64,000 nucleotides of DNA from Craspedostauros australis (lineage: Eukaryota). Numbering within the stretch: the stretch's first letter is position 1; each line of letters opens with the position of its first letter. The stretch covers positions 1 through 64,000 of the forward strand of contig JALAGF010004359.1 of NCBI GenBank assembly GCA_030167865.1, written 5' to 3'. A program made the translations under genes and the position numbers. Below the pieces are notes generated by a model. It was not told where the DNA came from. It ran no database searches and saw nothing but the letters and a program-made list of their open reading frames with translations. Shown here piece after piece: positions 1 through 59,500 of this stretch.

Positions 1-155
1 ACACGCACGTCACCATCCCCCTTTTTCACCGATTCGATCAACGCTGTTGGTGCTGCAACTACTTCTATGCCTGTGCCTGTGCCTATCCATTATCCTGTAT
101 TGCATATGCTTGCACGCTCCCATTGTCAAAACTCGACCAACGCATGCCACAACAG

Positions 156-39212: not shown

Positions 39213-39531
39213 CATTGCAACGGCAGGCTTGGATCTGACATTGTGCAGCATGCTGATGGGACCTGTAAAACTAGAGAAGTAGAATGCTAGAGCGTAAAGT
39301 AGTGTTTGTACGCTCAGCCGACGACCTTCTCCAACAGAAATCATTGCTCGTCCGAGCACAGTACATGCAGGGACTGCACACTTCGAATAGGGGTGTCAGA
39401 CGAACTCTGTGTGCTTGCGATGCTATTACGACTTGTAGCAAAGCGGGGTGGGAATCTTCAAGTTCTTCGTTCTCTTTTTCCCATTCTCTCTCCCTCCCAA
39501 GCCGTACTCGTTCTAATACTCGTAGCTTGAC

Positions 39532-40509
39532 TCATGGCTGCACAGTCTGCAGGATGGACCGAATGGTTGCGTAGAACTTGTCACGATCGGAACCGTGGAT
39601 GGAGTGGTCAGCATCCGGGTATCTGTGAATCGTGAGCTGGTCGCCCAGGATCGTCTTCATTTCCTGAACGCTGTCTTCGATGCAGACGGTTCCCTCCGTG
39701 CCGGCCACCAGCACATGGCAAGGAAAGGAGTGCGGCACGAGCGCCTTGCAATCCGCCTTGCCCTGCTCGGTGCTGAGCACGTGAGGATAGCAGAATTTGC
39801 GAAAGTCCGGGTTGATCTGCGACCACCAGGCACCGCCGTCGCTGTTTGGGTCCGGCCCCATCCTGCCGCTCGCGATGTAGCGATCGATGGAAGATGCAGG
39901 ATAGCCGACCTCCACGAACGCCCGGGTCAGGCTCTCCTTGCTGTCGCTGCGCCGATCGAAGGGGCTTTCGTACGGCTTGAGCTGAACGTAGCCATTTTTG
40001 GTTGGCTGGCGCGGTTCGATGTCCATGTCTTCGATGATGCAGGCTGCCACGTTCGACGGGTACTTGGCCGCGTACCCCATCACGATGCGCCCGCCCAGCG
40101 AATGGCCCAGCAGCATGACCTTGCGCGATGTGCCGCCATGCCTCCGGACGGCCTCGTGCAGATCCTCGACGAGAGCATCCTGCGAGAAGTCGTCGATCTG
40201 CCCCAGCTCCGAAAACCCGCAGCCCCGTTGATCCACCGCAAGGCACGGCACATCCTGCTTGAATGCGTCGATGGTGGCCGTCCACGTGTGGCTCGACGAG
40301 TCCAGTCCGTGGACCATCACCAGCAGCGGCGACTCGGATGTCTCCGCACCAGGGGGAGCCGTGCGAACGCAGTGCAAAGGAACGATTGTCATGGCGCTGA
40401 CTGTGCGGAGCGTACAAGTGGTTGCGAGGAGAAGCGCGGCGAGGATCAGGGGAAGGCGGTAAGGATACGATGTGGCGGAAACGAATTGTGTTGATTGCTT
40501 TCGCGGCAT
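39532..40509 (-). CDS. Alpha/beta hydrolase with N-terminal signal/anchor
   Basis: VHGLDSSSHTW, AVDQRGCGFS, nucleophile elbow GHSLGG, catalytic His in ADHSIH; ATG 40509 followed by LPLILAALLLATT. Confidence 0.9.
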   Translation of the reverse strand: MPRKQSTQFVSATSYPYRLPLILAALLLATTCTLRTVSAMTIVPLHCVRTAPPGAETSESPLLVMVHGLDSSSHTWTATIDAFKQDVPCLAVDQRGCGFSELGQIDDFSQDALVEDLHEAVRRHGGTSRKVMLLGHSLGGRIVMGYAAKYPSNVAACIIEDMDIEPRQPTKNGYVQLKPYESPFDRRSDSKESLTRAFVEVGYPASSIDRYIASGRMGPDPNSDGGAWWSQINPDFRKFCYPHVLSTEQGKADCKALVPHSFPCHVLVAGTEGTVCIEDSVQEMKTILGDQLTIHRYPDADHSIHGSDRDKFYATIRSILQTVQP

Positions 40510-40917
40510 GCTGTTCGATGGGTGGATCGTGCTCGTGGACAAGTGGGAGGTTCTCGTTTTGGAGTCTGCACAGCCGCAACTGTTTTGGGCAGAGAGAGCA
40601 GAGGATGGACACAACCGTGTGTTGTCATCGTGGATTCTCACTCCCCAAGGAGGCTTTGTCGGGGCATCACAAGCAATGGCGCTAACGCATCCAGCGAACT
40701 TCACTCCGACAAGTGCAATACATTCGAGTAGTCGTAAACACGTGGGTGCAGCCACTTGCTCTTACATTGGCTTCCGTAGTCCAAGCAGCCACATTCAACA
40801 ATTATGATGCTAATGGCAACCGAGTATTGGGGCAGAGTAGAGTCTTGTTGCATTACATTACATGCGCGCCAGGCTTATCCTCGTTGATCTCTTGCTCAGT
40901 CCCTACTCAACCGTTGC

Positions 40918-43900
40918 TCAGCCCTCCTTAGTGAAGCTCTCGCTGTCCATCTTCTCGTGCTTCTTCTTGGACGTGCGTCGCGACAGGCCTGGCAAACGAA
41001 GCTTGCTGAGCCGCTTGTTTGACTTTCCGGACTTCGTCGATTTCGCTTTGGATACTTCGTCGCTGTCGGAATCGTCTTCATCGCTGTGCACGTCCTCCAC
41101 AACAACCGGCTTGGGCGACTTCCACCCCAAGAAAGATCGGCGAGGTGTCTTCGGCGTCTTTGGCGAATCCTCACCGCCGGAATCGGAATCTAATCGCGAC
41201 GTGCTATCGTAAGCTGGCGCTGCTTCGTCCGTTTGCTTGCGTCCCGTGAACAGCCCCGAGATGCGGCGCGAAGATTTGGAACCCTTCTTCTTTTTCTTAT
41301 CACCTCCATGCTCGCTGCGGCTGAATGGCGATTTCGGGACGGGGAAGAGGCTGCTGCGGCGCGATCGCTGCGTCTTGTTGTCGTCGTCCTCCTCCTCCTC
41401 GGGCAGATCATCCAGCTCACGTTCGATGGCAGATTTGCGCGTCGTGTCGTACTTCGCCCTCCAGTCGGATGCGCTCATGCGGCGACTCAGACGGTCGTTG
41501 ACCTTCAGGTACTGCGGGAACTGGACTTCCAGCAAGCTCAGCTTGGCGTGGCAGCCCCACCGCTGGTACGCTCGGTACGCGCGCGTGAGGTAGGTCGAGG
41601 CCCACCCGGGAACCTCCGTTTCCACAAAGTACAGACCAGCTCGTTCGTTGGCCCACGCCTCCAGATGCAGCATGCCCTCCGACTTGGCATCCTCGATGGC
41701 TTCGTCCCAAAACTTCCTCATCTTCAGAGCGGATCTCTCCTTCGCCGTCAGAATCTCCAGCTCGGCCTCGAGGAAGTTCACCAGGACGCTGCAGTTGACG
41801 GCACCGTCGTTGTGCCACCCGGTCATCTTGTACAGGATCTTGTCCGCCCTGTCCTGCAGCCTGGCCTTCTTCTTCTTGTCCTTCGAGCTCTTCACTCTGG
41901 ACAGCAGCATCAGGCACTCCAGGAAGGAGCGGTATGGAATCCACACCCCATCCGGCTTGTCGGTCAGCTTCTTCTGCATCTTGTGGGCTGTCACCATGTC
42001 GTTGAAGATGCACGCGATGAACATGCGAGCGAAGTAGAACAGCTGGCAGCGTCTCGATACCGGACCGCCGCCGCCTTCCTCTGCCTCCTTCTCCCATTCG
42101 CCGACGATGGCGTCCTGTTCTTCCATGGATTGCCCGAACAGCAGGTCGGGATCGCCTCGCCTGCCCATGAGGTTCAGGGTCATGCGCTGCGGGATGGCGA
42201 CCTGCCACTGCTCGTCCAGCTGGTAGTCCTGGAACACGCCTTGGAACAGGTTGAGGTTGTGCTCCAGCTGCTCCAGGTCGCAACCGCTGGCCAGATGGGT
42301 GTGCACGTAGGCCATGATGCTGAATGGCGCGTGCTGGAAGTCTCCGACGTCGATTTGGTCGTTGTACAGCTTCAGGAGCGGCGCCAGATTCCGAATGTAG
42401 GAACGACCCCAGTGGCTCACGTTCCAATGGTAGTGGGCGAGCGCCTGACTCGCGTAGATGCAGCCAGGTCGTGCCGTGGCCAACCGCTCTGCTATGCGCC
42501 CCAGGCGGTATGCCTCCTTGTAAATCCCAAACCGGGCCAGCGTGGAAGCAAACAGGGAGTAGGCAAAGGACGTCTGACGGCAGTAACCGTTTCGCAGGGT
42601 CAATTTCATCATCTTCAGCGTTGCCAGGGTTCGGTATTGGCGCTGGGCCTTCGGATAGTACTTCGCGCACTCAGCGAGTTGCGCAAGCACCGCCATGGAA
42701 TCAATGCCCTTTCGGTCCGTCATGTTCGGCGGCTGCAGCAGCTCTCTATTTTTCTTGCCGCGCACGTACTCACGGATTTGATCGATTTCCTTTGATATAT
42801 GCTTCTTAACGTTTTCCGTCGGAACGTCCTCTCCCAACTGGAAGAGGATGAAGAGAATCAGATCCAACGCCTCGCGGAACTTCTGCTGCTCGATCTTGAG
42901 GAGGATCATGCACTGGTAGGCTCCCACCTTGTCCTTGAAGCACATGGCATTCTTCAGCACGATGTGAATGGTCGCCTCCGCGATCGGGAGCTGCCCGCAG
43001 CAGTACTGCGTTCTTGCCAGCAAGAGATGCATCCGCAGCGTCAGCTCGTACAACGGTCTGCGCCAGCGGATCCTGGGGTCCACGATGGAGATGCCCGTTT
43101 TGAGGTACTGGATGGCGGTGTAGAATGCGGATTTCATTATGGCGGCCTCGGCGGCCTCCATGTTCAACTTCGACAACCGCATTCGCTGTTTTTCGTCCAC
43201 AACGCCGCTGGAGCAGCGGTTGAGGTTGTCCACGGCCAAGAACTTCAGCCTGCCCTTCTCTTCGGCATCCTTGATCTGTACGCTGAGACTCGACACCGCG
43301 CTGCCGATGCGGAAGTGGATGATCTTGCCTTTCTGCCCCTTCGGCAGCAGACTGAAGGCGGCGTGGCGCACGGAATCATGAGAGAACTTGAAGTGCCCGT
43401 TCGACAGATACTCCAGCAAACCGCGGCTCGTGATGATGTTGAGGAGGTTCGACAGCTCACGCTCGTTCGCGATGGGGCATCGCACGTCTCGGTTGGCATT
43501 GTTGGCGCCGCTGAAGGCAGCCGCCACTTCGCGGTACAGCGTGCTGACTTGAAAATGCGTCATACCTGCGCACGCGGCCGTCGTCAATGCCAGCCTCATC
43601 TTCTTGGGCATGTCCTGCACCTTGTTCTTGAGGAGGAGGACCGCTGTGTCTGCGGCAGTGTCCATGAAGTCCTCCAGCTTGTCGCAGTTCCAGAGCCAGA
43701 GCTTCTTCTGCGACGAATGCACCAGCAGCTCCTTGTCGTGCAGAACGCGGAGCAGATGCAAGACAAACAATGGATTCCCTTCGCATTTGGCGAACAGAAT
43801 CTCTGCCAGCTCCTCGATCTTTTCGTCGTAATTGTCGTCCTCGCCTTCCTCGATGAGCGCGATGGAGAGCAGCTGCTCGGTCTCGTCGTGCGACAGCGGC

Positions 43901-45828
43901 TCCAAGGTGATGTGGGTTGTGCGGACGCCCGTGTTCTCGATGGTCTCCTGCATCTTTCGCAGCGCTGGTGGGACGAAGGCTGACGAATTTGCGTTGTTGA
44001 TGTTGGAGTGGACGCTGCTGTTACCAATCGTCTGAAGACCATGGACACCGCCGAAACAGCCAATGATGAGCAGATTTTGGACCGACTTTTCGGTCGCCAA
44101 GGACTGGAGCATGTAGAGGGAGTCGAGATCGGCGTGCTGCAAGTTGTCGATGACCATGACGATGGGGTAGTGTTCCGCGATGGCCGACAAGAAGTCCCTG
44201 ACGGCAAAGCCCAGACGCTCCGTGCGCTTTGGCATGTTTGAATCGAAGAGAAGCAACTGCCGTCTGGCCTCGTTGCTGTTGGGGTTGCCAACGTTGATAC
44301 TGCCTGGGGCATTGCTGTTCCCGTTGGGATGTCCATGTCCATGTCCATTGGCATTGCCGTTGACATGGGGTTGGAAATCGCCCAGGTCCATGATGTGCTG
44401 GAGATTGGGGATGACGGTGGACAGGAATGGTCCTTCACCTCCCAACGCCTCCTCCAGCCTGGTCTTCCAGATGGGCATCCCGCCATCCTCATGCATGCGC
44501 TCGACGAGGTCATTGAGGCATTCCGTGAGACCTGAGAAGGGCTTGGCGCCTGTCGTGTTTTCCTCGAAGGCACCGTAGGCGCAGTAGACCGTGTCGAAGA
44601 CCCTGTCGGAGGTTTCTAGCGCCAACGCGGTCTTGCCCACTCCCTCCGGGCCCGTGATCCATGCAATTTCATGAGCATTCTCCATCCATTCCAAGGATAC
44701 GCGCTCCACGGCCTTCGTGAGAGATTGCAATTCGCGGTTGCGGCCGCAGAAGGGGACGTCCTGGAAGAAGTCCACACCTGGCTGCCATGGCTTCTTCTGC
44801 TTTTGCGGTGGCACAGAGTCAATTTCGACGGAACCATCCACAGAGAGAGGGAGCTGGGTTGGACCGTGCTCCGAGTCCAGCATCGATCCCACGGCTGCTG
44901 CCGTCTTGGGAAGACGTCGACGCGGCGTTTTGACCTTCGGAGTTCGGAAGGCCTCGAGGGGGATTTGGCGGAATGCGGCGTCCTCTTCATCGTTGAGACC
45001 TCGTTCGAAGACGGATTCTCGATCGTCTCCGTCATCTCCATCGCTGTCATCGGCATCATCGTCGTCACCGCTCTCGTTGTCGCTGGCATCGAAGCTCTCC
45101 TCGTCGCTGGCCAAATCCATGAAGGCCTCCTGATCATCGTCATCCAAGCGGTCCCCGTCGAGACCTTCATCATCATCTTCATCGGTCGTGTACTCCTCCT
45201 TCGGTGGCTGCATCCTCTGCTTCTTGGGCTTGAACCGCTTCTTCTTGGGTTTCTTTTTGCCATTCTGCTGTGCGCCATTCGGCTGCGCCGATGAAGGTGA
45301 CGATGCGGCCCTGTCCGCGTGTTGGTCGGGAGCTGCTGCTGCCTTCTTGCGAGTCTTGGCCCGCATGCTGCGGCCCTTTTGCGGTTGCGCCTTGGCTGGT
45401 TGCGATTCATCGTCGGCTTCATCCGACAGATCCTCTTCTTCTTCGCTGCTACTGCTGCGACTGCTGCCATCATCACTTTCATCGTCGCTTTCATCATCTA
45501 TGTCATCATCCATTTCATCATCCATTTCATCATCGCTGCTGATCTCCTCTTCGGAGCTGCTGATCTCGCTGGATTCGTCTTCGTAAGCGTCGCTGCTGTC
45601 GTCAGACTCGGAAGCCGATTCCACCGAGGACTCCAAAGATGTGGCGTCTTTGCGGTTGCCATTGTGCGTTGCGTCCTTGTTCCCAGGCATCGTTTGCGGA
45701 GGAGGCACGTTGATGGCAACGCCTCGCTTCTGCACATGCATCATCCCGACTTGCGATGCGCCATCGTCGTCATCGTCGCTGCTGAAGCCGAAGCCGCTGC
45801 TGTCGCTGGAACTGTCGTAGCGCATCAT
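40918..45828 (-). CDS. STAND-class AAA ATPase + TPR-like superhelix (COG3899-like), paralog 1
   Basis: FCGRNRELQSL, Walker A GPEGVGKT, Walker B region MVIDNLQHAD, GNPLFV, FKFSHDSVRHAAF, ANERAG, AYQRWGCHAKL; acidic N-term and Ser/Lys-rich C-term IDRs. Confidence 0.9.
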   Translation of the reverse strand: MMRYDSSSDSSGFGFSSDDDDDGASQVGMMHVQKRGVAINVPPPQTMPGNKDATHNGNRKDATSLESSVESASESDDSSDAYEDESSEISSSEEEISSDDEMDDEMDDDIDDESDDESDDGSSRSSSSEEEEDLSDEADDESQPAKAQPQKGRSMRAKTRKKAAAAPDQHADRAASSPSSAQPNGAQQNGKKKPKKKRFKPKKQRMQPPKEEYTTDEDDDEGLDGDRLDDDDQEAFMDLASDEESFDASDNESGDDDDADDSDGDDGDDRESVFERGLNDEEDAAFRQIPLEAFRTPKVKTPRRRLPKTAAAVGSMLDSEHGPTQLPLSVDGSVEIDSVPPQKQKKPWQPGVDFFQDVPFCGRNRELQSLTKAVERVSLEWMENAHEIAWITGPEGVGKTALALETSDRVFDTVYCAYGAFEENTTGAKPFSGLTECLNDLVERMHEDGGMPIWKTRLEEALGGEGPFLSTVIPNLQHIMDLGDFQPHVNGNANGHGHGHPNGNSNAPGSINVGNPNSNEARRQLLLFDSNMPKRTERLGFAVRDFLSAIAEHYPIVMVIDNLQHADLDSLYMLQSLATEKSVQNLLIIGCFGGVHGLQTIGNSSVHSNINNANSSAFVPPALRKMQETIENTGVRTTHITLEPLSHDETEQLLSIALIEEGEDDNYDEKIEELAEILFAKCEGNPLFVLHLLRVLHDKELLVHSSQKKLWLWNCDKLEDFMDTAADTAVLLLKNKVQDMPKKMRLALTTAACAGMTHFQVSTLYREVAAAFSGANNANRDVRCPIANERELSNLLNIITSRGLLEYLSNGHFKFSHDSVRHAAFSLLPKGQKGKIIHFRIGSAVSSLSVQIKDAEEKGRLKFLAVDNLNRCSSGVVDEKQRMRLSKLNMEAAEAAIMKSAFYTAIQYLKTGISIVDPRIRWRRPLYELTLRMHLLLARTQYCCGQLPIAEATIHIVLKNAMCFKDKVGAYQCMILLKIEQQKFREALDLILFILFQLGEDVPTENVKKHISKEIDQIREYVRGKKNRELLQPPNMTDRKGIDSMAVLAQLAECAKYYPKAQRQYRTLATLKMMKLTLRNGYCRQTSFAYSLFASTLARFGIYKEAYRLGRIAERLATARPGCIYASQALAHYHWNVSHWGRSYIRNLAPLLKLYNDQIDVGDFQHAPFSIMAYVHTHLASGCDLEQLEHNLNLFQGVFQDYQLDEQWQVAIPQRMTLNLMGRRGDPDLLFGQSMEEQDAIVGEWEKEAEEGGGGPVSRRCQLFYFARMFIACIFNDMVTAHKMQKKLTDKPDGVWIPYRSFLECLMLLSRVKSSKDKKKKARLQDRADKILYKMTGWHNDGAVNCSVLVNFLEAELEILTAKERSALKMRKFWDEAIEDAKSEGMLHLEAWANERAGLYFVETEVPGWASTYLTRAYRAYQRWGCHAKLSLLEVQFPQYLKVNDRLSRRMSASDWRAKYDTTRKSAIERELDDLPEEEEDDDNKTQRSRRSSLFPVPKSPFSRSEHGGDKKKKKGSKSSRRISGLFTGRKQTDEAAPAYDSTSRLDSDSGGEDSPKTPKTPRRSFLGWKSPKPVVVEDVHSDEDDSDSDEVSKAKSTKSGKSNKRLSKLRLPGLSRRTSKKKHEKMDSESFTKEG

Positions 45829-47050
45829 CTTGGAAACTTCGTGTTGATTGCTATTGGTTACTGTCGAGTGCTGTTGGTTGCTGTCGAGTGGTCAAGGAAG
45901 GAATCGAGGATGTTGATGATAGTGCAGTCGTACGACTAGCAATGCAGGATGACAGGATGACAGGATTATAGAATTCTATTGAGTGTGCAGACGAGACTGA
46001 TGGTCTGTGCAACTCTACGACTATGATTGCAACTGTGCGAAGGTTCCTGTCCTCCCAGTATCGTATAATACGAGCAGGTCGCAGGTATGCTGTGGTCTGT
46101 GTTGTGTTGATCGGAATGGTGATGTCTTGTCTCTCTCTTTTGTGTCTGCAACGGTTGCTGATGCTCTGCTGTTGCCCTTTTCGGCTGCGAGCGTTTCGGT
46201 GTTGTTGTGGCTCTTGTGCGAAAGATACAATAGTCGACTGGAACTTGTGCGAATGACCTCTGCACGCCAGCAACTCTCATTCATTCGTGTCTGAACGGAC
46301 ACAGTCCATGTCGATGTGACAGAAAGCGAATGTCCACCTGACAGAATCCGTGATTGCGATTTCGGCGAACGACATGTCAGATGGTCGGCTTGATCGATCC
46401 AACGTCTAGACAAATACTGTTGCCTAAATACAGGACTTGGTGTAAAACGAATGACCCAATCGACTAAGCCTCGGCTTTGAATCGTGTCTGATTCAACTGA
46501 TTGCATGCTGGATGGCGAGCAACTGTGACTGCTTGTCCTTCTCCTGCGCCAGAACGTGCCTGTCGCACTGGTGGCGGCCAAACACTTCGACCTTCTCGTA
46601 TTCGCCCCGCACGGACATGATTGAGACATCTGACCCCCAAGACATGCGCCCAAGACGCTACATGCGACGCGTCTCATGATGCCAACGCTCCAGGGCCTTT
46701 GCTTCAAGAATCTCCATCGATCGCGGATAGATCCCACGGAGGATCGATCGACACATCGTCGAATCCGACCTGTGTCGTGGTGGTCTCTGTTTTGCTGTCT
46801 CTCTGTTGTGTGTGGTCAGGAGCCATGCGCCTCATTCCTGCATGGCACACACTTCGCCATTTCTCTTGAGTAGGTTGTACTCCGCACTGTCGAATCTCGC
46901 AGCAAGAGCTTCTCTGCACTCAGTTGGCACAGGCTGGTGGAGCGCTGTCCCTCGCAAAGCAACGATGTGGACAGGGCATCTCCTCTTGCAAAAGTGTGCG
47001 ACCGTGGCTCCCAGAACAATTGACGAAGCATCAACATGAGTGAAAAGTGT

Positions 47051-47690
47051 CCGGGTTCAAGCCCGGCAGGGAAACCCTGGGTAAACAAACAGTATCATGT
47101 CTTGGTTGATAGAACACAGACAAAAATGGGTACATACCTCAAAATTGGGAGTGATCAAGTCTGTCAATGAAGTAGATCAAAGCTGGTTGAAAGTTGCTAT
47201 TGTGCTCTGAGTGTTTAAACAATTTAGTTGATTAATAGCTGGCCCAATTCAGATCTGTTGAAGTGTGAATTGTGAGCAGATGGGGATGCAATGATGTGAA
47301 TTGATTCTGAGGCAACATGTGTTGCAACACAGCAGAGCATGAAATGCAGAGCATGAAGTTGTTATCGATTTTGAAATAATAAGGAGGTCCATTGGTGCCA
47401 TCACTACCAACCTTGCTTCTTAGAACAACATTGATGCATGCAACAAATCCGATCATTGCAGAAATGTGATCTTGTCAAATTTGACAGGATTGCTGCGTCT
47501 TATATCTGAGCCAAGATGCTCAGATACATTCACTCATCAAGACAGTAGGCATGCCTCGTGAAGGTGGATTCACAGGGATGTAGATATACATGTTCATGTG
47601 CACATAAGGAAAATGACAGGCAGGGCCTGACATCCATGCATTAGCTCGCTACCATCCTCAGACACCAAGATAGGTATCTGAGGACGTACG
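47051..47690. mobile_element. Probable decayed non-autonomous element (CpG-depleted, palindrome-rich island)
   Basis: Only 4 CG counted in 47101-47640 versus CG-rich flanks; at least seven hairpins or palindromes; no transposase or RT motif seen. Confidence 0.4.
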
Positions 47691-48135
47691 GGGGTTGCGG
47701 TAAGTTATATTATCAAAGAAAGCGAAAATGGTTCAGGACCAACAGTCCCATGCGTGACCAAACGCATTCTATGGAGAACAAGATTAGACGTAGGCTAAGG
47801 TGAATATAGATTTTTGATCTAATAGTGCTCATGTCATGGCTGTATCAGTATCCCTCTTCAGTGTTTTGGCATCTCCCTGAATTCGCAGACTGGACTTCGA
47901 TACCACACCTGCGAACTTCGAGGATATGTGATGCTGGTGCCGTTTTCATTACCGTCACGTGGTGAAGGGCATGGAGTAGGCAAAGCAAGGTGCAAAGTAT
48001 GCTCGAGTATAGTGCGCGAACCAGGACATGAAGAACTTGTGGAGCAAAGAATATCAGTGTCGCTCCATACCACGGTCGATGACTGCGGATAGGCTTTCGC
48101 CCAGTATGCACAAGTACGCCATCCGATTTCGATGA

Positions 48136-51100
48136 TCAGCTGTTCACAAATGAACCAAACGAAGCCGCGTCGTCATGATCGTCGCCATCGTCCTTCTTCC
48201 TTGCGCTCCATCGTTTGCTTGATCTTTTCTTTTTGCTGGAACCATGAGAGCTTCGTTTGTGGAGACTCCCTCTGAGGCTGTTACCCAAGCCGGACAGCGA
48301 CCTCAGAAAGCTTCTCCGGGCTGGAGTTGGCCTTTCGGCACGGGCAGAGTCTGAAGGGGGAGACGGGGCGTTCATCGCCGCGGCCACTGCTTTCAGTCTA
48401 CCATCCACGCTGCTCGCAGCATCATTTGATTTGCCTTCGCTGGATTTGGTCGGGGTGGACAGAATGTGTGGCGCACCAACATCCGCGCGGAATGATTGCA
48501 AAACAGATTGCGGCGTAGTGCCGCGTAGTGCAGGATGCAGTACCATGCGTGTACAGGACCACAGAACAAAAGCACCAGAAGAGTAGACAATACGCGACGA
48601 AAGAGAAGAGGCAAGTCGGCAGGGCAGCAATTGATAACGAGGAACCGCGACGGTTAGAGAGAAAACTGGAGCATCCATACATATCTGGAGACACAATGGT
48701 GATGGCAGGCTAGTTTACTGCTTTGTCCAGATGCTGAATATGATACCTGTTATCACAACTACTCATGGTACTCACTCGTTGGGTGACGGTTTTGGTGATG
48801 TTGAGCCTTGGTTGTTCGTTTCCTCGTCCTCCAGCAGGTCGGTTAAAGTGATGCCAGAGGCTTGGCTCGCATTCAGTGCTGCGGCGTTCATGTCGGAATG
48901 AGACGACGATAGCCTGTCGTAGTTGGGCATCTTCTTCTTTTTCTTCTTCTTCCCACCTCCAAGCAATTTCTGCCGCAGCGATTTTGGCTTGTAGGACGTC
49001 GGCTCTGGTTCGTTGATTTCGCCATCTTCGGAGGATGCAGCGAAGCTTGCGTTGAAGTCGGCATCCCCAAGCCTGGAGGATGAATTGGTATTGTCGACGG
49101 AATCGCTCTTCCTCGAGCCTTGTTTTCCCTTCCTTGAGCCTTTCTCGTTGTTTGCGCCCGCTCCACTGTCGCCTCCCTTTCCTGACCAGGGCATCGCTTT
49201 CCGAAAGAATCCCTTCTTCGTCGATGACTTTTGCGCAGGCGCGTCGTCGCCACTGCTATTGGGATGGGCACGCGGCGATTGCAGGCTGTCTTCGCCGCGA
49301 TCATCTTCCTCCGAATGACCTGGCTTGGACAGAGAGGATCCTCTCCACGACATCGGTTTCCGAGCCACATCGTCGTTGCCGTCGTCGTTGCCTCCATCAA
49401 ACGGTGTTGAGAAGTCTTCGTTCGACATGGCACGCCGTCGACCTTGGAACAGGCCCTTCGCAACTCCACCTTTATTGCCTTTGGGAGACTTGGGTGCGGG
49501 TTTGTTCTTCTTCTTTTCCTTTTTCGATTTCTTCTTGCTTTTCTTTGCCACCTTCGCTGTATCGTCGTTGTCGTTATTGAGGTCATCCTTGTCCTTGCCC
49601 TTCTTCTTGCCCTTTCTCCATCGTGATTTCTTCTTGTCCTTCTTTTTCATACCACTCAGCATCTTGGACAGGTTTCCACCTCCCGCATCGTCGCCCTTGA
49701 TTTCTGCGGCCTTCATACGGTGCGAGCGACGTCCTTTCTTCTGCGCATTCATTGCCAGATCACGGAAGCTCTGTCGGTTGACTTGGTTGATCGACGGCCG
49801 ATGCATAGGCACATCGATATGTAGACCAGGTGCAGTAGGACGCAAGGCGCGGCTGCTTTGCCTTCTGTTGTGCATCATGGCACCAGGTCCCAGTGGCACC
49901 CCGGGGATGTTTCTACCGTCCATTGCAACAGGCATGCCGTTCGGTCTCACCGGGCTGTTCGATGGTGGGCCGCGATTCTGTGGACTCATGGGATGCTGCT
50001 GCTGCTGCATCATTGGCATCGCCAGGTGCTGTGGCGGGGGATGGGCCATTCCCATTGCTTGATTGGGGGGCATTTGCATTTGCGATGGGCGCATGGGAGA
50101 TCCATTCGGCGACTGGACCCGAGACATCCCAGGAGCCTGTGCTGGCGCATTTGGATTCATGCGAACGGGAGGTGGCGGCATGGGGTTCCTCGGGGCGTTG
50201 GGACCACCGGTGAAGATCCGCGGCCGACGGGTCCGCCGTGGCTGGCCTTGGTTGGGGTGACGTGGGGGATAGTTGCAATCCAAGAAGGCGCCAAATTCAT
50301 CCTCCAGCTGCTCGCACTTGCCGCTGGCTCCCCATTGGTGGTAGAGGTACCATGCCTCCGTCAAATACGCGGCAGCCCAGGCTTCGTCGCGCACGGTGAC
50401 GAAGAAGCGGCCCGCAAGCTCGTTGGTGAGGGCCTGCTGGAAAACGAGGCCGTGCTTGGAGGCGGCGGCGATTGCGGGATCGTACAGAGAGCGAACCTTC
50501 ATGGCGGACAGACCCTTTTTGTCGTTGGCCAACTGAAGCTCGGCTGATAGCAGTTTGGAGATGCAGAGGCAGTTCACGCAGCCGTCGGAAGCCAAGGTCC
50601 TGACATAGATGAGGATCGTGGCCGCACGTTCAAGATGTCGGCCCTGCTCTTTGAAGTGGGCAGTTTTGGCCTGGTACAATGCCAGCATGCCATCCACCAA
50701 GGCCAGGTACGGGCGCCAAACTCCATCGGGTCTCCATCCTATCAACCGCTTCTTCATCGCGGCGGCTTCGATGAAGTTGCCAAATGTGAATTCGGAGATC
50801 ATGCGGATGAAGTTCAGGTACTTCAAGGCTCTGATGTTCCCGCTCTCATTCCAACGCCGCACCCGCTGCTCGTAGTCGACCGCAAAGTCTTCGGCGGTGC
50901 CCATCAGGTCCAAGATCAGCTGGTACGGCACGAAGACCTTCCATGAATCCTTGACACGCCAGTCGAACATGAATTGCTGGAATCTCACCGATAGCAACTC
51001 GGCAATCGGCAATGGCTGGTTTCCAGATGCCAGTATATTGCAAACGTGCGTGCCAACGTTGTACGAAAGCTGTTCCGTCGATGCGATATCGAATGCGAAG

Positions 51101-54100
51101 TTGCAGACGCTGGATGTCACGTCCAAGGCTTGTCCGTAGGGCCGGCGAATGTGGCTGACCTCCCAGTGGAAGTTGGTCAGGGCATTGGCCCCGTGGAGAT
51201 TATCAGGCTTTGCAAGCGCTTCCGTGAGTCGTCCGAAGCGGAAGGCCAGGCGGTGCATGTTCCTGCGTTCCAACGCCATGGCGTATAGTGAGTAGGCAAG
51301 GGCCGTCGTGTGAGACAAACCGTACTGGACGGTGAGCTTCACCATCCGGGTGGCGCAGATCGTCTCGAACGAAGCGTCACCACGCAATCGACTGATCTCA
51401 GCCAAGATCGCTAGGAAGGTCATCTTGCTGATGGTACGTCGATGCGTCATCCTTGGCAGAGTGCATAGATCTGCGTTGGATTTCTCCTTGACCATGGCCT
51501 CCACCGCCATCATCTCCTGCCCGGCTGCCATGGGTAAATCGGCCGGGATCGGCTCGTCCAGACCATTCAGCACATCCACCGTCTTCGCGAGCGCGCCATT
51601 GAGGATGTTCCGCTCTATAAGATCGAAGATGAGGACCTGAGACGCACCCAACTTGTCTCGTTCGTTGGTGCTGTGTGCCAGAATCGTTTCTGCCACCTGG
51701 ATGGTCTCGGATGGTGCCATGCGCGTGCAGAACATGAGCCGGGCCTTCGCCAGCATGAGGCGCATTGCCAAGTCGTAGTGCTCGGTCCACATGCTGTCCG
51801 TGTTGAGCAAGTCCAGCCCAGCATCGACCTTGAAGAGGGCTTCTAGAAAGGCACCCTTGCTCATGGCGAGGTCAGACAGGTCGAGGTTGAGCTTCGCGAC
51901 CTGCGCATTGTCTTTCTCGCTGTCGCCCAGAGACACGGCCTGGTTGAGCTGATCCATGGCCAGGAGCTTGAACATCTCCTGCGTGTCGAGCTTCGTGCCA
52001 GAGCTGGCCAGTCCCATCTTACTCAAGACGGAACCAAGGCGGAAGTGCAGCAGCTTCATGTTTCGCGCTGACAGCGGGAAGAGTGCGTTCGCGCACTTGC
52101 GGATGACATCATGCGAGAAAGCAAAATCTGTGTCTGACAAGCGCTTCACGAAATGATGGCGCTCGCAGATCTGCAGGATGCTCTTCAGGTCGTCTTCCGA
52201 AAGCGTGACGGCCGCATCTCCCTTCTTCCGTGTGATATCGAACATGGGTTTGGTGAAGTGTACGAGGGTGCCGAGATCGAATTGCGACAAGCCCAACATC
52301 GCGGCGCATTTCAATACCAGGGCACACTTCTTGGGAATCCCCCTCAGCCGATTCTCGACGACCTTCGTGGTTGTGGTCGGCAAGGTACTTCCGTCGTCGA
52401 TGACGTCCATGTCGCATGAGAGCTCTTTGTTGGATAGATTCCATGTCACCACGTCGCCTCTCTGGACCAGGTACTCGACTGTCTGCACCAAGAGAAGCGG
52501 GTTGCCGGAGGTCTTTTGGGACAAGCTGGATGCCAGAGCATTCAATTGTGGGTTGTGATCAGGAATTGCATCCGAATCCAGCTGCAAGGCGTTCTTTAAC
52601 CGCAAGGCGACGAGATTTCGTGCTGTTTCCTCCTCGATGTTTTTCAGCATGATCTTCATGGATGGGACGCCACGCAGCCGGTTCCTGAAGACGGCCAACG
52701 AATGCGTGTTCTTCACAGCTCGATGGCAGCAGACGAGCATGCAGTTCTTCAGTGCCTTGGTAGATAAGAACGTCTCGATCATCCTCAAAGAGTCGTCTCC
52801 GGCGAAGTGGATATCATCCAGCACCATGACGACAGGCGCATGGGAGCAGACGGTGACGAGGAAGGCGCGGACGGCGAATCGCAGTCTGTCGTACCTGCGC
52901 TGCGTCGTGATATCGAAGCCGTGGATGACCCGTTCCACCTTGGTGTCCGTGCCAAGCAGCGTAGCGAGATTGGGAACGACTCGCGCCAGCAGGGAGGCGC
53001 TTTTGCCCAGGCTGCGTTGCAGGCGCGACTTCCACTCGTCGACCTCGAAATCTGCCAGCAGGCATTCCACCAGCATCGTCAAGCAGTTGACGAGTCCCGA
53101 AAAGGCCTTGCTGTTGCCTCTGGCCTCGTCGAACGAGCCGTAGCAGAAGAGAACATCCTGCTCCACGTGTTTGTAGAGTTCCTCGACGAGGACCGTTTTG
53201 CCGACGCCTGCGGGTCCGGAGATGTAGACGACCTCGCTGGCGGAAGGGGCTGGTGCAGAGACGCGATTAAGCGATTGCCGCAGCTGACTGAGCTCCTTGG
53301 AGCGTCCCGTGAAGAGCGACGTGTTCTTTTCTGGCTGCTGGTCGTCCATGTCGAAGTCCATCATGGTGGAGGCATTGAAGTCATCCACGGCTGGTTCTGT
53401 TGCGATGATATTTTGTGCGATGACAGGCTCGCCCGACACTTCGGCGCTGCGTGTTGGAGCTGCAACACCATCCTGGGATTTCTCGGCAGATTGAGTTGGA
53501 TCTGCTGCTTGCTTCTTTCCAGACTTGGGCCGCCTTCGCTTTCGTTTGTGGAAGATTGGTTTGGACTCCTTCTTGGACTTATCTTTGGTCTTGTCCTTGC
53601 TCTTCTCCTTGTCCTTGCCCTTGTCTTTGTCTTTGGTCTTGTCCTTCTCCTTCCCTTTCTTGCCGCTGGACGACTTGTCCTTCTTGGACTTGCTCTTACT
53701 CTTGCTTTTGCTCTTGCTGATGCTGCTGTCTTTCTTCTTTGCCTTCTTGGAAGATTTGTCCTTCTTGGATTTGGACGAGGTCTTTGACTTGGAGGACGAC
53801 TTGGTTTTGCCGCTCTTGTGCTTGCTCTTGCTGGACTTTTTCGACTTGGACTTCTTTGGTGTGTCGACGGTGGCTGTGGCAGTGGTGTTCGTGGCCGTTG
53901 ATGCAGCAGTGGTTGGCTGCGAGGACTCGTCCAATTTGGTGGTGGATTTCTTCACTGTGGCCTCCAGTTGCTGTGGCTCATCGTCGCCCGATGAATCTTG
54001 ATCGACCGATGCCTCCGCAGCTGCCATCTTCGCTTGTTTCCCGGTGCCATCGTTCTCATCGTCGGCATCATCGTCTTCATCTTCATCCTCCTCGTCGCTG

Positions 54101-55047
54101 TCATCGTCTTCATCATCATCCTCGTCGTCGTCGTCTTCATCTTCATCCTCGTCGTCGTCGTCATCCTCCTCCTCTTCAGCATCGGCTTGGCCGTGATCGT
54201 CGGGTGTTTGCTTTGCGGTGATGAAGGTTTGCGTCTCTTCTTCCGCCATTGCCTCATCTTCGACGACTTCCTCCTCATCCATGAGTTCCTCATAGGTTTC
54301 AAAGAATCCCTCGACCTCCTCCACCTCCATGAACTCATCGCCGGCATCGTCGAACGTCCAATCCGCGGATTGGTGCATCTGGTTCCATTTAGATTGGTCG
54401 ACGTCTTGCGATATCTCGATGACCTCCTCCTCGTCGTAGTCATTTTCATTTTGGCCATCGGCGTTTTTTTCATCGGCGTACATGACCTCTTCGATGATGT
54501 AGGCATCATCAGCATCTGCTTCGTCTTGACCGTCGCCGTAATCTTCAGGCTCCAACGAACTGATGTCATCCATCGTCGTGAAATCCGTCAAGTTGAGAAA
54601 AAACGCACCTGCTGCATTTGCGCCATCGTTGTCGTCGTCGTCATCATCGTCATCCTCCTCTTCATCGTCGTCGTCGTCTTCATCATTGGTGCCTTCAGTG
54701 GTGCCTTCTCCGCTTCCTTCTACGCCACTCTTTTTGGCCTCCTTGGAACCGTCCGGTATGCTGCTGTTGCAATCCTCCGAGGTCGAGGAGGAGCTTGAAG
54801 AGCCCGCTGATGAGGATTCAACCTCGTACTCGTCGTCGTCGTCGTCATCGTTCTCTTCGTCGATGGAGTAGTAGGACTCTTCTTCCGATACCATGGCGGC
54901 TTCGTCCGATGGCGTTGTTCCGTAACCAGCATCTTCCTCGTCCTCCACTTCCTCGACTTCGATCGAGTACTCCTCGCTTTCCTCCACGATCTCCATCACC
55001 ATGTCTTCTTCGTCGCTGCCGCTGGCCACACCAGGCGTTGCTGCCAT
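48136..55047 (-). CDS. STAND-class AAA ATPase + TPR-like superhelix (COG3899-like), paralog 2 (~2191 aa), complement(join(48136..48439,48776..55047))
   Basis: FTGRSKELSQL, Walker A GPAGVGKT, Walker B MVLDDIHFAG, GNPLLL, FAFSHDVIR, TNELAG, LYHQWGASGKC. The apparent stop lies inside a GTGAGT donor; acceptor AAATCCAG ending 48440 keeps the frame. Confidence 0.88.
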
Positions 55048-56501
55048 GATGCCGGTCGCGGTTGGTTGGGCGGCCGCAGCAGCGGAAGATGGGGATGGCA
55101 CTCAGCGGCGCGTGGCGCTGGTCAGCTTGTATTCGCGCTCGTGCGATTGCGTATTGCGCGACGGCGGAGTCCGATGTGTCGCTGCTGAGCGAGAATACCA
55201 GCGTGTGTCTCAGTCGGCTCGGAGAGAGTATGACCAGGATCGTGTGCAACTGCTCGCAACTCCACTATGGATGAGTACTCGTACTCGTATGTATGGTGTG
55301 CACAGTCCAGTGTCGCGATCTCTCCAAAGTATTATAGAAAGGGACGCAACGTGACACGAGGTAGCGTCGCTCCGGATTGCTGCCGTTGCTGTTGCTGCTG
55401 CTGCTGCTGCTGTTATTCTTTGTCACCTTTGCACGACCATGTGCAGCCTCTCTGTCGGTGCCGTTCTCCTCTCTCTGCCAGTCTGCCTCTGGATCCCCCT
55501 GGCTCGAGAGAGCGGTATCCACGAAGTCTTCGAAGCGGAGACCAGTGCGAGATGGCGCGTCTGGCGGTTGTGGTCTTCACGACTGTCATTTTGCGGTTTT
55601 TCAAGGCGATGAATGTCTCCCAAGATTCTATTGCATTTGGTCAAGCGAGTCGAGCCGGTCATCGCGACATAAATCTTCTGCAAATGGCATTCGCACCACA
55701 CCTCTTCGCGCTTTTCGGCATGTTTTTGGTTTCGGGACAACGCAGGTCAAACGGAAGGTATCCTTCCTATCTCAGTCTTGGAGGGACTAAATCGATAGCC
55801 TCGACCACTTCATGATTGAACCCAAACCGAACCATCATGTGTCGGAGGCATGTCGTTGATGCATCCACACCAATCAAAATCAGGTGTTGATGGTATCTGG
55901 GCGATTCATCGGTGGCCATCCCATCTCTTGGCAACCCTTCATCAAAAAGTGAGAAGGCAAGTTTTGCGCAGTTGTGCTTCCAACACGACAGCGACAGAGA
56001 AATGATGTGCGAACCGGTTTGTGCTCATAAAAAAGAGCAGAGAGACAGTCTCCACTTCTGGAACGATCGTGGAAAACGTCAGAGCAGTTGGTGCAACTGT
56101 CGGAAGTGGAGTGGATGCAACTCCAGCGGAGAACCCAACCTCCGACCACCCCCATCACATCATCTCTCTTGTATTATACGAGTGCGTATCTCGTCTCCTC
56201 TCCCCACCATCACCTCACAACCAGAGTCATCCACGCTTGCTGAAATTGCACCAAGGCTGACACCCAGCTTTCGCATCTTTTCAGAATCGCCTTCACTCGC
56301 ATCGCATTGGTGCATCTCGTTGGTGCACCCGTTCGCATTCCTCTTGTGCACAGCGCTGATACAGCTCTCGGACGAGAGACTGGCAGAGAGGCAAGCTGAG
56401 AGAAAGAGAGAGACACTCCACAAGCACACCGCAACCGCATCATCTCATACCATACGCTAAACACCAAACGCCAAGCAAGCTGAGGCAGCAAGTCCATCAA
56501 C

Positions 56502-59500
56502 ATGGTTGCGTACGGCATAACGTTGCGCAACGTCCAACGGCCAGGTTGGGAACAGGCGTACCTGAACTATGGCGGGCTCAAGGCCATCCTGGAGGACATG
56601 GAGAGGCTGCATCACAACGCCAAGCGCCCATCGCTTCTCGTGTATCCCTCCAACAAGCATGCTGCTGTGCGCCAATGCATGCACCGATTCCAGCAGTTGC
56701 TGCAACGAGAGATTGAGAAGATCTCTCTCTTCGTGCTGCAGGAGGAGGGCAAGCTGGCCACGGCGATTGGCACAATGCTGCGCATCAAACGGGACGGTGA
56801 GATGACGTCAACAAACATCTCTACCTCCACCTCCACCTCTATCCTTCCAGATCGGTCCCAACCACCAACGGAAGGCTCGTTGTCGCAGACTCCGCTGTTG
56901 CCATCATCGCCGTCGCCTTCACAGCCACCAACGCCGCAGGCGACTGCGAATGCGAATTTGTCCTCGAATCCGTCCTCGAATCCGTCAGAAGTCTTCACGA
57001 ACGGACTCTCCATCATCAAAGATTTGGGGATCGCATCGCTTCCGGTCGGTGATGCCATCGCCGAAGCAGACTGGAATGACGTTGGCTGCGCGCTGGGGGT
57101 GGAATTGATGCACCTGCTGCAATTCATCTGCCTCAATGCCATCGGAGTGCGCAAGATTGTCAAGAAGCACGAAAAGATGATCGTCCGCGTCATGCTGTGG
57201 TCCGACGCCTTGTCGGTTGGGCACGATAGCTCGAGACGCCTGCAACTGCCGCGGCCCCGGTCGTTGCCCGCCGCCCTCGAAAGTGCGTCATCGGACGTGG
57301 AAGCGTCCGTGGGTTTCAGCGAAGTCGATTTGCTCAGCGAACGGAGTGAAACCATCACGATGACTCAAACAAGTGCAGTGGCCGCCGAGAGGGGGCAGAT
57401 ATTCAATCATGCCAACGCGATCAATGCTGTCCATTTGCAGCATCTGGCCAATTCCGAATCCATCTCGGCGCTGTATACGTCGTTGCACACCGCGCTGCTA
57501 GAGGAGCAACAGAGGGTGCACAGTCGCAGGCTCGAGGCATCGCACACGGACGATCAATACTCCGAGATGACTCCGTCGAGGTCGCAGCGGCTTCTGCATT
57601 CCGCATCGTCGTCGCTGCACCCGACACACAAGACATCCCTCCTGCGATTTCACTACGTCATGACCTCCATTCAGAAGATACGCAAGCATGCGGATCACAT
57701 CGTCAACGACGAGCCCTTCCGCACCTACCTCTCACGCAAGGCCATGATTTTGACGGGGAAGAATTTGGGGAAGATCGAGGGCAACGCGCTGAAGGCATTG
57801 GAGAGCATGCTGGTGCTGGAGCCTTCGTCGATCATCAGCATCACCCGTGCCGAGCTTCAGGATTGGCACCAAACGCAAACCTACTTCAACATCGCTCAAG
57901 AAGCACCCATGGAGTGCTTAACGAAGGAGATGTTCTTGGAAACGGCCAAGGTGGTGTCCAGAGAACCAAGCGTGTCGCCACCCGAAGGTAACTTGGTGTG
58001 GGGTGGCGTGGATTCCATGTCACTCGTCATCAACCTCCTCTCAACCTTGCTTTACACCGTGAACTACTACGTCGTGGCTCCGACTGCCAACCACTACGCG
58101 ATCTTGCTGGGCACGGATGGTGCCTTCGGCGCAACGCTGCTCGGGGCGTCCTCCTTCGCTGCCATCTTCGCGGCATTCCTCTACTCCTACTGGTACACGG
58201 TGTCTTCATTCCGATCGGTGCTGATCTTCTCGGCGCTGTGTCCCCTCGTCGGGAACCTGCTGTACTCCTTGGCCATTTCATACCACAGCATGCCGATGGC
58301 GTTGGTGGGACGTGTCTTGTGCGGCTTCGGCAGTGCCGAGGTCGCCAACAGGCAGCTGATATCGGTCTGCGTTTCCTTCAGCACCATGACCCGTGCCAGC
58401 GCTCTGTTCGTGGCGGCCGGCGCCCTCGGCATGAGCGTGGGACCGCTGCTGGCGGCGATCCTGGACATGACATCGGGACGGGATCTCCAGGTCGATTTCC
58501 AACTCCCGTTCTCACCGGCGGGTGGAATCATTTACGATCACGTGACAAGCCCTGGTTTCCTGATGTCTGTGATTTGGTTCGTCCAGTTGATGCTGCTCAT
58601 CGTTTGCTTCCGCGAACCAGAACGCATCAACGGGAAAGGAGCGCCCGAGTTGTCCGCGGAACTCACGGAGACGGAGGGATGCGCCTCGTTTGGCGTGATC
58701 AACTATGACGAAGACGCATTCGGTATCCAGCCCGAATCGAGGCCTAACGGCGAAGGCGACGATGAAGAAAAGCACTACTACTATGAGGACGATGTCGACG
58801 ACAACGTCGTCCAAGGGGGTGGGAATGGAGATGATAACAGGAAGGCTGACGGCGGCCCTTTTGGCCAGATTAATGAGAGCAGCCAGACAGACTTCTTCCG
58901 GCATTTGCACTCGACGACCAACCGCACAGATTATGGTGCACTAGGCTTGGCGCACGAAAATAGCGCTGATGAGTTGATTTCGTTTCAGAACGCAACACCA
59001 CCATCAGAGACAACGTCATTCGGGTGGTTGGGCCAAACTACGGCGAAGAAAAACCGTGAGAAGCCGAAGCAGGGGAAAATGAGGACCGCCTTCGAATCCG
59101 TCAAGTTTGCTTGTCAGATGCTGCGAGAAAATCCGGCACTTCCGCTGACTCTGCTTCTATTCGGGTACATTGAGATGGTGGATGAAGTGCTGATATCCTC
59201 GTGCTCCATGATCTGTCTACGGTACTTTGGTTGGCCAGGTTCCGTGGCAGGGTTGCTCATTGCGAGCTTGGGATCGCTGGTCCTTCCAGCCGACTTCTTG
59301 GTGCAAAAGGCGACATCGCCGCACCATGGATCCGTCAGATACTCCGAACGAAGGATCATGAAGGTAAGAAACAACCATGGAAGGCAGCATCGACGTGCAC
59401 AACGCGTTGGGCGCCGGCTATCTTGCTCCTCGCTTACGATTTGCGATATATGATTTGCCCCTCACCCAATCTTCTCTTTGCATCCCAACCATAATATCAT

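What the first reader, a model, noticed from the sequence alone, without database searches (positions are those of the whole stretch)
40918..55047. Tandem pair of giant kinase-less STAND ATPase/TPR proteins: candidate diatom NLR-like switch system
Seen: two same-strand paralogs about 2.3 kb apart, each with F.GR..EL, Walker A GxxGVGKT, Walker B, GNP, FSHD and a long helical region ending Y..WG..K. Established: this core matches bacterial COG3899 multidomain kinases (Ser/Thr kinase-AAA-TPR-GAF-His kinase), where the WGA.K motif directly precedes the GAF domain. STAND NTPases are signal-triggered oligomeric switches such as NLRs, MalT and Avs. Seen: the positions of both kinase modules are filled only by disordered low-complexity sequence, and the two cores are highly diverged. 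Inference: a bacterially related, nearly intronless STAND family repurposed as effector-less sensors or scaffolds, possibly in innate immunity or stress signalling.
Basis: partly seen in the sequence, partly recalled or inferred. Interest (0 to 1): 0.7.

Follow-up and report, generated by a model that had tools for sequence, protein, structure and literature searches.

The report
Conserved diatom switch pair, one disabled
Two neighbouring diatom genes encode old sister copies of a bacterial-type signalling switch protein; one copy has lost the parts needed to flip the switch, so the pair looks more like a conserved cell scaffold than a fast-evolving immune sensor.

Summary
The two ORFs are real: A (40918-45828, 1636 aa) and B (48772-55047, 2091 aa), 2.9 kb apart. 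Each is a COG3899-type STAND ATPase-TPR core between disordered tails, with no kinase, GAF or His-kinase domain. Lacking the kinase is not special to them: the genome holds over 100 such places, none of 53 scanned frames showed a kinase, and COG3899 abundance in diatoms was tabulated in 2012. They are single-copy members of two sister clades also found in other raphid pennate diatoms. The A clade lacks the sensor-1 Arg (0 of 21) and mostly has Asn for the second Walker B Asp (19 of 21), but keeps the P-loop Lys, so it is a predicted pseudo-ATPase. B mostly keeps both residues. In both clades the TPR part is better conserved than the ATPase, the reverse of the expanded family and of bacteria. 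That argues against an arms-race immune sensor. The one long foreign contig with an A-type gene shows no B beside it. Best reading: a conserved scaffold and switch acting on a host partner. No earlier scan note covers this pair.

The parts
40918..45828 (-). Gene A, single open frame, 1636 aa: STAND-TPR protein, predicted pseudo-ATPase (start codon inferred as the first ATG)
44752..45828 (-). A, disordered N-terminal region (aa 1-359), 27% Asp/Glu with Lys-rich patches
41506..44751 (-). A, folded core (aa 360-1441): NBD, helical domain, winged helix, arm, TPR-like superhelix
   Evidence: (pLDDT 84.5, pTM 0.80)
44629..44652 (-). A Walker A, intact, Lys kept
44128..44154 (-). A Walker B with Asn for the second Asp (19 of 21 A-type rows)
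44047..44067 (-). A sensor-1 position at the end of strand 4; Arg absent (Gly here, Glu or Asp in 19 of 21 A-type rows)
40918..41505 (-). A, Lys/Arg/Ser-rich disordered C-terminal tail and stop codon
48136..48546 (-). Small Ser/Lys-rich ORF between B and A (136 aa from this ATG; another ATG at 48678). No family or relative found. May be a small gene or untranslated sequence
   Evidence: GC3 0.54 against 0.64-0.77 for seven other ORFs
48772..55047 (-). Gene B, single open frame, 2091 aa: STAND-TPR protein with canonical catalytic motifs
53317..55047 (-). B, disordered N-terminal region (aa 1-577): about 400 very acidic residues, then a Lys/Ser-rich block
50281..53316 (-). B, folded core (aa 578-1589): NBD, helical domain, winged helix, arm, TPR-like superhelix
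   Evidence: (pLDDT 83.7, pTM 0.72)
53194..53217 (-). B Walker A, intact
52798..52824 (-). B Walker B, both Asp present
52717..52737 (-). B sensor-1 with Arg kept (16 of 17 B-type rows)
48772..50280 (-). B, disordered C-terminal tail: Pro/Gln/Met-rich, then Lys-rich; RG-rich in several orthologues

Best explanation
A and B are sister genes from one old duplication within the kinase-less COG3899-type STAND family of diatoms. They have been kept as two distinct conserved proteins and still lie together in this genome (shown by trees and own-genome searches). A binds nucleotide but cannot run the ADP/ATP cycle, so it is a fixed-state scaffold, probably closed and ADP-bound. B is a working switch in most lineages. 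These two points are inferred from motifs, using established STAND biochemistry. Both use a strongly conserved TPR superhelix to bind a conserved partner of the diatom's own cell rather than a changing pathogen molecule (inferred from conservation). With no enzyme domain, output would be through assembly, with the charged disordered tails recruiting proteins, RNA or cytoskeleton (inferred). The two probably work in one complex or pathway, A as the non-catalytic subunit (inferred from co-retention and divided motifs; binding not tested with a result).
For: Clades: A (21 rows) and B (18 rows) each have support 100 and are sisters (39 rows, support 100) in a FastTree of 239 cores; IQ-TREE on 46 and 31 rows gives the same. 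Single copy: each gene's best other hit in the genome is the other gene, at 32%. Motifs: sensor-1 Arg in 0 of 21 A rows, against 16 of 17 B, 25 of 27 sister-clade, 52 of 53 expanded-family and 25 of 25 bacterial rows. Second Walker B Asp in 1 of 21 A rows, against 14 of 17, 26 of 26, 51 of 53 and 24 of 25. Walker A Lys in 20 of 20 A and 16 of 16 B rows. TPR identity exceeds NTPase identity in 51 of 55 A pairs and 48 of 55 B pairs, against 70 of 1326 expanded-family pairs and 5 of 300 bacterial pairs. Acidic N-termini and basic C-termini recur across orthologues. STAND fold: PH0952 and MalT are the top NOD matches.
Against: No partner, location or phenotype is known. Adjacency is not seen in 1 of 1 long foreign contig (L092: 4.3 kb upstream, 6.5 kb downstream). 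3 of 17 B rows, including Pseudo-nitzschia multistriata, also have Walker B DN, and 1 of 21 A rows has DD, so the split into active and dead is not clean. Both clades have also lost a Lys found after strand 2 in nearly all other rows (0 of 20 and 0 of 16), so B may not cycle normally either. The two changes in A point in opposite directions (an ATP trap versus loss of ATP sensing; recalled from MalT and Apaf-1 work), so A's resting state is a guess. Pair counts are not independent, and the A set includes one near-identical pair.
Confidence: 0.5

Rival explanations
1. A and B are the conserved hub (helper) of an NLR-like network in which the 100-plus fast-evolving family members are the sensors. 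The conserved TPR of A and B reads activated sensors, and the disordered tails are the output.
For: The expanded family shows the pattern of immune receptors: a genome-specific burst (42 own rows in one clade), tandem copies on 5 other contigs, TPR more variable than NTPase, catalytic motifs intact, and no effector domain shown in 53 frames, so they need a downstream partner. COG3899 counts range from 2 to 48 among four diatoms (PMC3491386 Table 1).
Against: No link between A/B and the expanded family was tested. The named A/B members are all raphid pennates, while centric Thalassiosira carry 42-48 COG3899 genes; whether centrics have A/B is unknown. A and B have no recognisable death or pore domain and no PADLOC match.
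Confidence: 0.15
2. A and B are a dedicated, genetically linked sensor/helper immune pair like plant paired NLRs, with A as the ATPase-dead sensor.
For: They are neighbours in a 66 Mb genome, sister clades, one with degenerate motifs. Degenerate Walker motifs occur in a bacterial sensor, KpAvs8 (bioRxiv 10.64898/2026.01.04.697583, figure legend).
Against: The TPR is the most conserved part of A. The genes are single-copy and tandem, not head-to-head. B is not beside the A-type gene in L092. There is no effector domain.
Confidence: 0.1
3. A and B act independently as ordinary small-molecule or stress sensors of the MalT type. Their adjacency is only a relic of the duplication, and A is fixed in an on state.
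For: A conserved TPR groove also fits a fixed metabolite, as in MalT (PMC6468293). A and B share only 26-27% identity in the TPR, so their ligands may differ. Linkage is missing in L092.
Against: It does not explain why both kept the same unusual tail layout, nor why A lost two switch residues if it still had to switch.
Confidence: 0.25

Closest known systems
Bacterial COG3899 multikinases (CP1 Ser/Thr kinase-AAA_16-TPR-GAF-His kinase), e.g. Nostoc PCC 7524 P0032
   Same: Core of about 1000 aa aligns end to end at 21-27% identity; same motif order; the WG..K motif closes the core just before the GAF domain. CP1 kinases are tied to COG3899 (PMC12599244, passages).
   Different: No kinase, GAF, HisKA, PAS or receiver domain. 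Disordered tails instead. TPR rather than NTPase is the conserved part. A lacks catalytic residues. The kinase-fused rows form a separate clade.
Stand-alone diatom COG3899 / 'Orc1-like AAA ATPase domain' proteins
   Same: Same kinase-less, single-frame layout; counted in four diatom genomes in 2012 (PMC3491386 Table 1); two diatom-dominated Atlas clusters; 126 places on 115 contigs here.
   Different: Those copies are lineage-specific bursts with variable TPR, intact motifs and mostly very short C-tails. A and B are conserved single-copy clades with long tails.
PH0952 (PDB 6MFV) and MalT (8BOB): STAND proteins with a TPR-type sensor
   Same: NBD-HD-WHD-arm-TPR fold. A: 6MFV E 6.7e-10. B: 8BOB Z 18.1, rmsd 4.6, 381 aligned; 6MFV Z 16.8, rmsd 7.4, 612 aligned.
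   Different: 12-16% identity; no DNA-binding output domain found; longer TPR; A is predicted not to cycle.
Fungal group X histidine kinases (Chk1 type)
   Same: Eukaryotic relatives with the kinase-GAF-HK layout (PMC6324907, passages); the TPR_CHK1 model hit 1 of 53 own-genome frames.
   Different: A and B have no kinase, GAF or HK module and no TPR_CHK1 hit. Fungal sequences were not placed in my trees.
Paired or networked NLRs (plant sensor/helper pairs, NAIP-NLRC4) and heteromeric AAA+ rings with inactive subunits such as ORC (comparisons recalled)
   Same: Division of labour between a catalytically altered and a canonical paralogue.
   Different: No N-terminal effector domain, no head-to-head layout, conserved rather than variable repeat domain.

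Membership tests
STAND NTPases | NBD + helical domain + winged helix + arm + repeat sensor fold | tested here: met
   AlphaFold2 models; best matches PH0952, MalT, Apaf-1, NRC1
STAND NTPases | Walker A, GxP and winged-helix HD motifs | tested here: met
   Present in A and B
STAND NTPases | Catalytic Walker B acid and sensor-1 Arg, gene B | tested here: met
   DD and Arg in B; 14 of 17 and 16 of 17 B-type rows
STAND NTPases | Catalytic Walker B acid and sensor-1 Arg, gene A | tested here: not met
   DN and Gly in A; Asp in 1 of 21 and Arg in 0 of 21 A-type rows. A is STAND by descent and fold, but not a working switch by motif
STAND NTPases | Inducer-triggered ADP/ATP exchange and oligomerisation | not testable with these tools
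   Needs biochemistry
COG3899 / CP1 multikinases | Homologous AAA_16-TPR core of about 1000 aa | tested here: met
   Bacterial hits cover up to 100% of the core, E down to 4e-67
COG3899 / CP1 multikinases | N-terminal Ser/Thr (pseudo)kinase | tested here: not met
   No Pfam hit; N-termini are 27-32% acidic low-complexity sequence
COG3899 / CP1 multikinases | GAF plus His-kinase or other output domain after the core | tested here: not met
   No hit; transcript-derived orthologue has none inserted; 1 GAF match in the genome, on another contig (1 candidate only)
SWACOS clade of STAND | Placement with reference SWACOS sequences | not tested
   Name recalled from Leipe et al. 2004 (seen only in a reference list); no reference set was placed
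Paired NLR immune receptors | N-terminal effector domain (TIR, CC, CARD, enzyme) | tested here: not met
   None in Pfam; no PADLOC hit; NCBIfam hits only far below cut-off
Paired NLR immune receptors | Fast-evolving, variable repeat sensor | tested here: not met
   TPR more conserved than NTPase in 51 of 55 A pairs and 48 of 55 B pairs
Paired NLR immune receptors | Conserved genomic linkage of the two partners | tested here: inconclusive
   Linked here; B absent beside A in 1 of 1 long contig; too few contigs
Paired NLR immune receptors | Activation by a pathogen molecule | not testable with these tools
   Needs infection assays

The most novel reading that the evidence does not exclude
Raphid diatoms have built a eukaryote-specific STAND heteromer out of a bacterial multikinase core: a nucleotide-locked pseudo-ATPase (A) with a switch subunit (B), signalling only through disordered tails. 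This conserved pair is the common hub for an independently evolved NLR-like repertoire of more than 100 effector-less TPR sensors, which would be the first receptor network of innate-immune type in diatoms.
Probability: 0.15. Interest if true: 0.88.

Novelty: new variant of a known kind. Interest (0 to 1): 0.52.

Why it matters
The COG3899 family is one of the most abundant domain families in some diatom genomes and appears to be functionally unstudied. This locus splits it into a fast-evolving crowd and two conserved single-copy genes. That gives a tractable target: two knockouts rather than a hundred. A clade-wide pseudo-ATPase with a conserved TPR would be an unusual use of the STAND scaffold. 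If A and B serve the expanded family, diatom pathogen sensing becomes directly testable. If they do not, they mark an unknown conserved process, possibly specific to raphid diatoms.

Tried and rejected
Complex prediction of the TPR halves of A and B: no verdict (score 0.00, alignments not used); this is neither support nor evidence against. The NOD-NOD pairing was not run. No run on record as RNA was listed; the one run laid has no cover over either core, which says nothing about expression or introns there. Synteny scan of metagenomes: 4 loci from 238 pattern matches, 2 of them A-type and only one long. B-type patterns: 21 loci from 38 matches in prokaryote genomes, all scoring far higher with the bacterial multikinase; 0 of 29 in viral contigs. 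By eye, no A-type and B-type entry shared a contig length; this is weak because the lists are incomplete. No solved relative by sequence beyond P-loop hits. No tRNA in the window and no Rfam match in 39000-57000. Repeats there are only low-complexity codon runs. The small ORF has no Pfam, BLAST or Atlas match. The careful bootstrap tree did not finish; one search is the quick mixture-model tree. A link to gliding motility was considered because all five named A/B members are raphid pennates, but passages of PMC11420354 gave nothing on this family, so it stays a guess. Extra exons supplying kinase or GAF domains were rejected. Short ORFs between 55047 and 56500 were not scanned against Pfam.
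Full report
OBSERVATION. The window is G000:C4359:1-64000 of a 65.9 Mb assembly. Two uninterrupted minus-strand frames are present: A, 40918-45828, 1636 aa, and B, 48772-55047, 2091 aa. Both hit Pfam AAA_16 and nothing else above cut-off. PADLOC gives no match and NCBIfam only hits far below cut-off. The cores align at 29% over 1105 columns. The gap is 2,943 bases and holds a small ORF. In one run guessed to be RNA, the eight longest pieces have no differences and no gaps. They include 40872-41415 (across A's stop), 48732-49262 (across B's stop, unspliced) and 47851-48641. If that run is DNA, this says nothing about splicing. Stronger evidence that B is complete: an MMETSP transcript product from Stauroneis constricta aligns over B residues 13-2062 at 53% identity, 70% in the core.

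WHAT THE CORE IS. Of 166 homologues (120 listed), nearly all listed ones are bacterial kinase-AAA_16-GAF proteins with a His kinase or another output domain, at 21-27% identity. AlphaFold2 folds both cores confidently (A pLDDT 84.5; B 83.7). The best structural matches are STAND proteins: PH0952, MalT, Apaf-1 and NRC1. The STAND cycle (closed ADP form, open ATP form, oligomer, usually an effector domain) is taken from PMC6468293 (Introduction and passages read).

KINASE-LESS IS THE FAMILY NORM. A search of the genome with B's NTPase scored 97 of 272 candidates, all matching; A's TPR matched 61 of 137. The union is 126 places on 115 contigs, which includes near-identical contigs and split frames, so it is not a copy number. 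I fetched 60 loci for the 94 non-window matches, leaving out duplicates and short frames. Of 53 frames scanned, 53 hit AAA_16 (52 above cut-off) and none showed a kinase, GAF, HisKA or cyclase; for one frame 3 of 8 families were not displayed. Same-strand tandem copies occur on five other contigs, and three other members have low-complexity N-termini of about 400-670 residues. The family is on record: COG3899 counts of 42, 48, 11 and 2 in four diatoms (PMC3491386, Table 1 passage).

A AND B ARE DIFFERENT FROM THE CROWD. A phmmer search of 1.84 billion representatives (best 150 of 13,196 listed) and two TPR-region searches gave orthologues. In a FastTree of the 239 rows with at least 650 of 992 columns filled, A-type (21 rows) and B-type (18 rows) are sister clades with support 100, apart from the 53 own-genome rows and from the kinase-fused clade. 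IQ-TREE subsets of 46 and 31 rows agree (SH-aLRT 100; no bootstrap finished). Named members are Cylindrotheca fusiformis and C. closterium (A) and Stauroneis constricta and Pseudo-nitzschia multistriata (B); the rest are unnamed metagenome proteins, so the range beyond raphid pennates is unknown. Each gene's nearest relative in this genome is the other.

A IS A PREDICTED PSEUDO-ATPASE. One search counts rows with a residue at each site. Walker A Lys: 20 of 20 A, 16 of 16 B. Second Walker B Asp: 1 of 21 A (Asn 19, Gln 1), 14 of 17 B (Asn 3), 26 of 26 sister clade, 51 of 53 own expansion, 24 of 25 bacteria. Arg at the end of strand 4: 0 of 21 A (Glu 10, Asp 9, Gly 1, Asn 1), 16 of 17 B, 25 of 27, 52 of 53, 25 of 25. 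Its position as sensor-1 follows from the strand order in the models. The A set holds one near-identical pair; cluster mates P0276 and P0306 were left out. That the second acid is the catalytic base and the Arg senses the gamma-phosphate is recalled from MalT, Apaf-1 and plant NLR work; the MalT paper was not held and searches found no paper on it. Against a clean split: three B rows also carry Asn, and both clades lack a Lys that 24 of 24 sister, 51 of 53 own and 24 of 25 bacterial rows have.

CONSERVATION RUNS AGAINST AN ARMS RACE. Using only rows from the whole-core search, and dropping the close Stauroneis row, TPR identity exceeds NTPase identity in 51 of 55 A pairs and 48 of 55 B pairs, but in 87 of 325 sister-clade, 70 of 1326 own-expansion and 5 of 300 bacterial pairs. 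Restricting to pairs of 30-50% mean identity gives the same picture. Pairs are not independent. The tails keep their character across orthologues: acidic in front, Lys/Arg-rich behind, RG-rich in many B.

SYNTENY. One long foreign contig could be read (L092, 15.4 kb). Its A-type gene has no B within 4.3 kb upstream or 6.5 kb downstream; upstream lies a head-to-head, frame-broken copy of the canonical type. So adjacency here is best read as a relic of the duplication and is not shown to be required.

MECHANISM. Shown: two conserved sister clades, STAND fold, no enzyme output domain, clade-wide loss of two switch residues in A, conserved TPR. Inferred: A is a nucleotide-bound fixed scaffold, B a switch, both bind a conserved host partner and act by assembly through their tails, probably together (0.5). 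Rivals: independent sensors (0.25), hub for the expanded family (0.15), dedicated immune pair (0.1).

LITERATURE. I found no description of these clades or of a diatom STAND pseudo-ATPase in searches; the library lacks most subscription journals. Seen as passages only: PMC12803021, PMC3491386, PMC12599244, PMC13236601, PMC6324907, PMC11420354 and bioRxiv 10.64898/2026.01.04.697583 (its supplements are closed and may place this clade among its 589). PMC7335047: passages, part 1 of 2 of one section, and 3 supplement files searched with no hit. PMC3478156: passages and 12 of 13 supplement files; it reports two 'multi-sensor multi-kinases' up-regulated in silicon starvation, which I did not check for membership. 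Earlier scan notes had no look-alike of this stretch; one note on a bacterial output-less member pointed me to the CP1 name.

VERDICT. A real feature and a new variant of a known family. The kinase-less layout and tandem position are ordinary for this genome. The conserved pseudo-ATPase/ATPase sister pair is the new part. Interest 0.52.

Noticed in passing
G000, at least 115 contigs (loci L031-L090, L095-L102): Large expansion of effector-less STAND-TPR genes with intact catalytic motifs, variable TPR and tandem copies; 42 rows form one genome-specific clade. A better candidate for an NLR-like repertoire than A and B.
   Followed up: partly
window 48136-48714 (-): Small Ser/Lys-rich ORF covered by its own contig piece (47851-48641) in a run guessed to be RNA; no relative found; GC3 is low.
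   Followed up: partly
window 48775-48685 (-): A GT-AG pair 91 bases apart overlaps B's stop codon; splicing would add 10 residues only. The one contig piece there is unspliced.
   Followed up: partly
L092 253-3425 (-): Frame-broken canonical family copy lying head-to-head with the A-type gene in another diatom.
   Followed up: partly
P0158 (VEU43311.1), P0186, P0266: A sub-branch of B that includes Pseudo-nitzschia multistriata also has Walker B DN while keeping the sensor-1 Arg.
   Followed up: no
P0138-P0230, 28-29 rows: The sister clade of A+B is made of mostly compact 1000-1150 aa stand-alone proteins with short tails; none of the own-genome rows fell in it.
   Followed up: no
L046 2371-6513 and L101 1185-6099: Family members split over two frames (intron, frameshift or decay).
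   Followed up: no
window 67-1641, 15589-16731, 17410-18321, 28433-29554, 34852-35469, 36402-39212, 39532-40509, 56502-59453: Ordinary neighbours by Pfam: cyclic nucleotide phosphodiesterase, squalene/phytoene synthase, hemerythrin, RING finger, DnaJ, glycosyltransferase 92, alpha/beta hydrolase, SPX-MFS transporter. No defence-like cluster.
   Followed up: no
window 1889-3430, 19371-21074, 31129-33228: ORFs of 513, 567 and 699 aa with no Pfam match at E 0.01.
   Followed up: no
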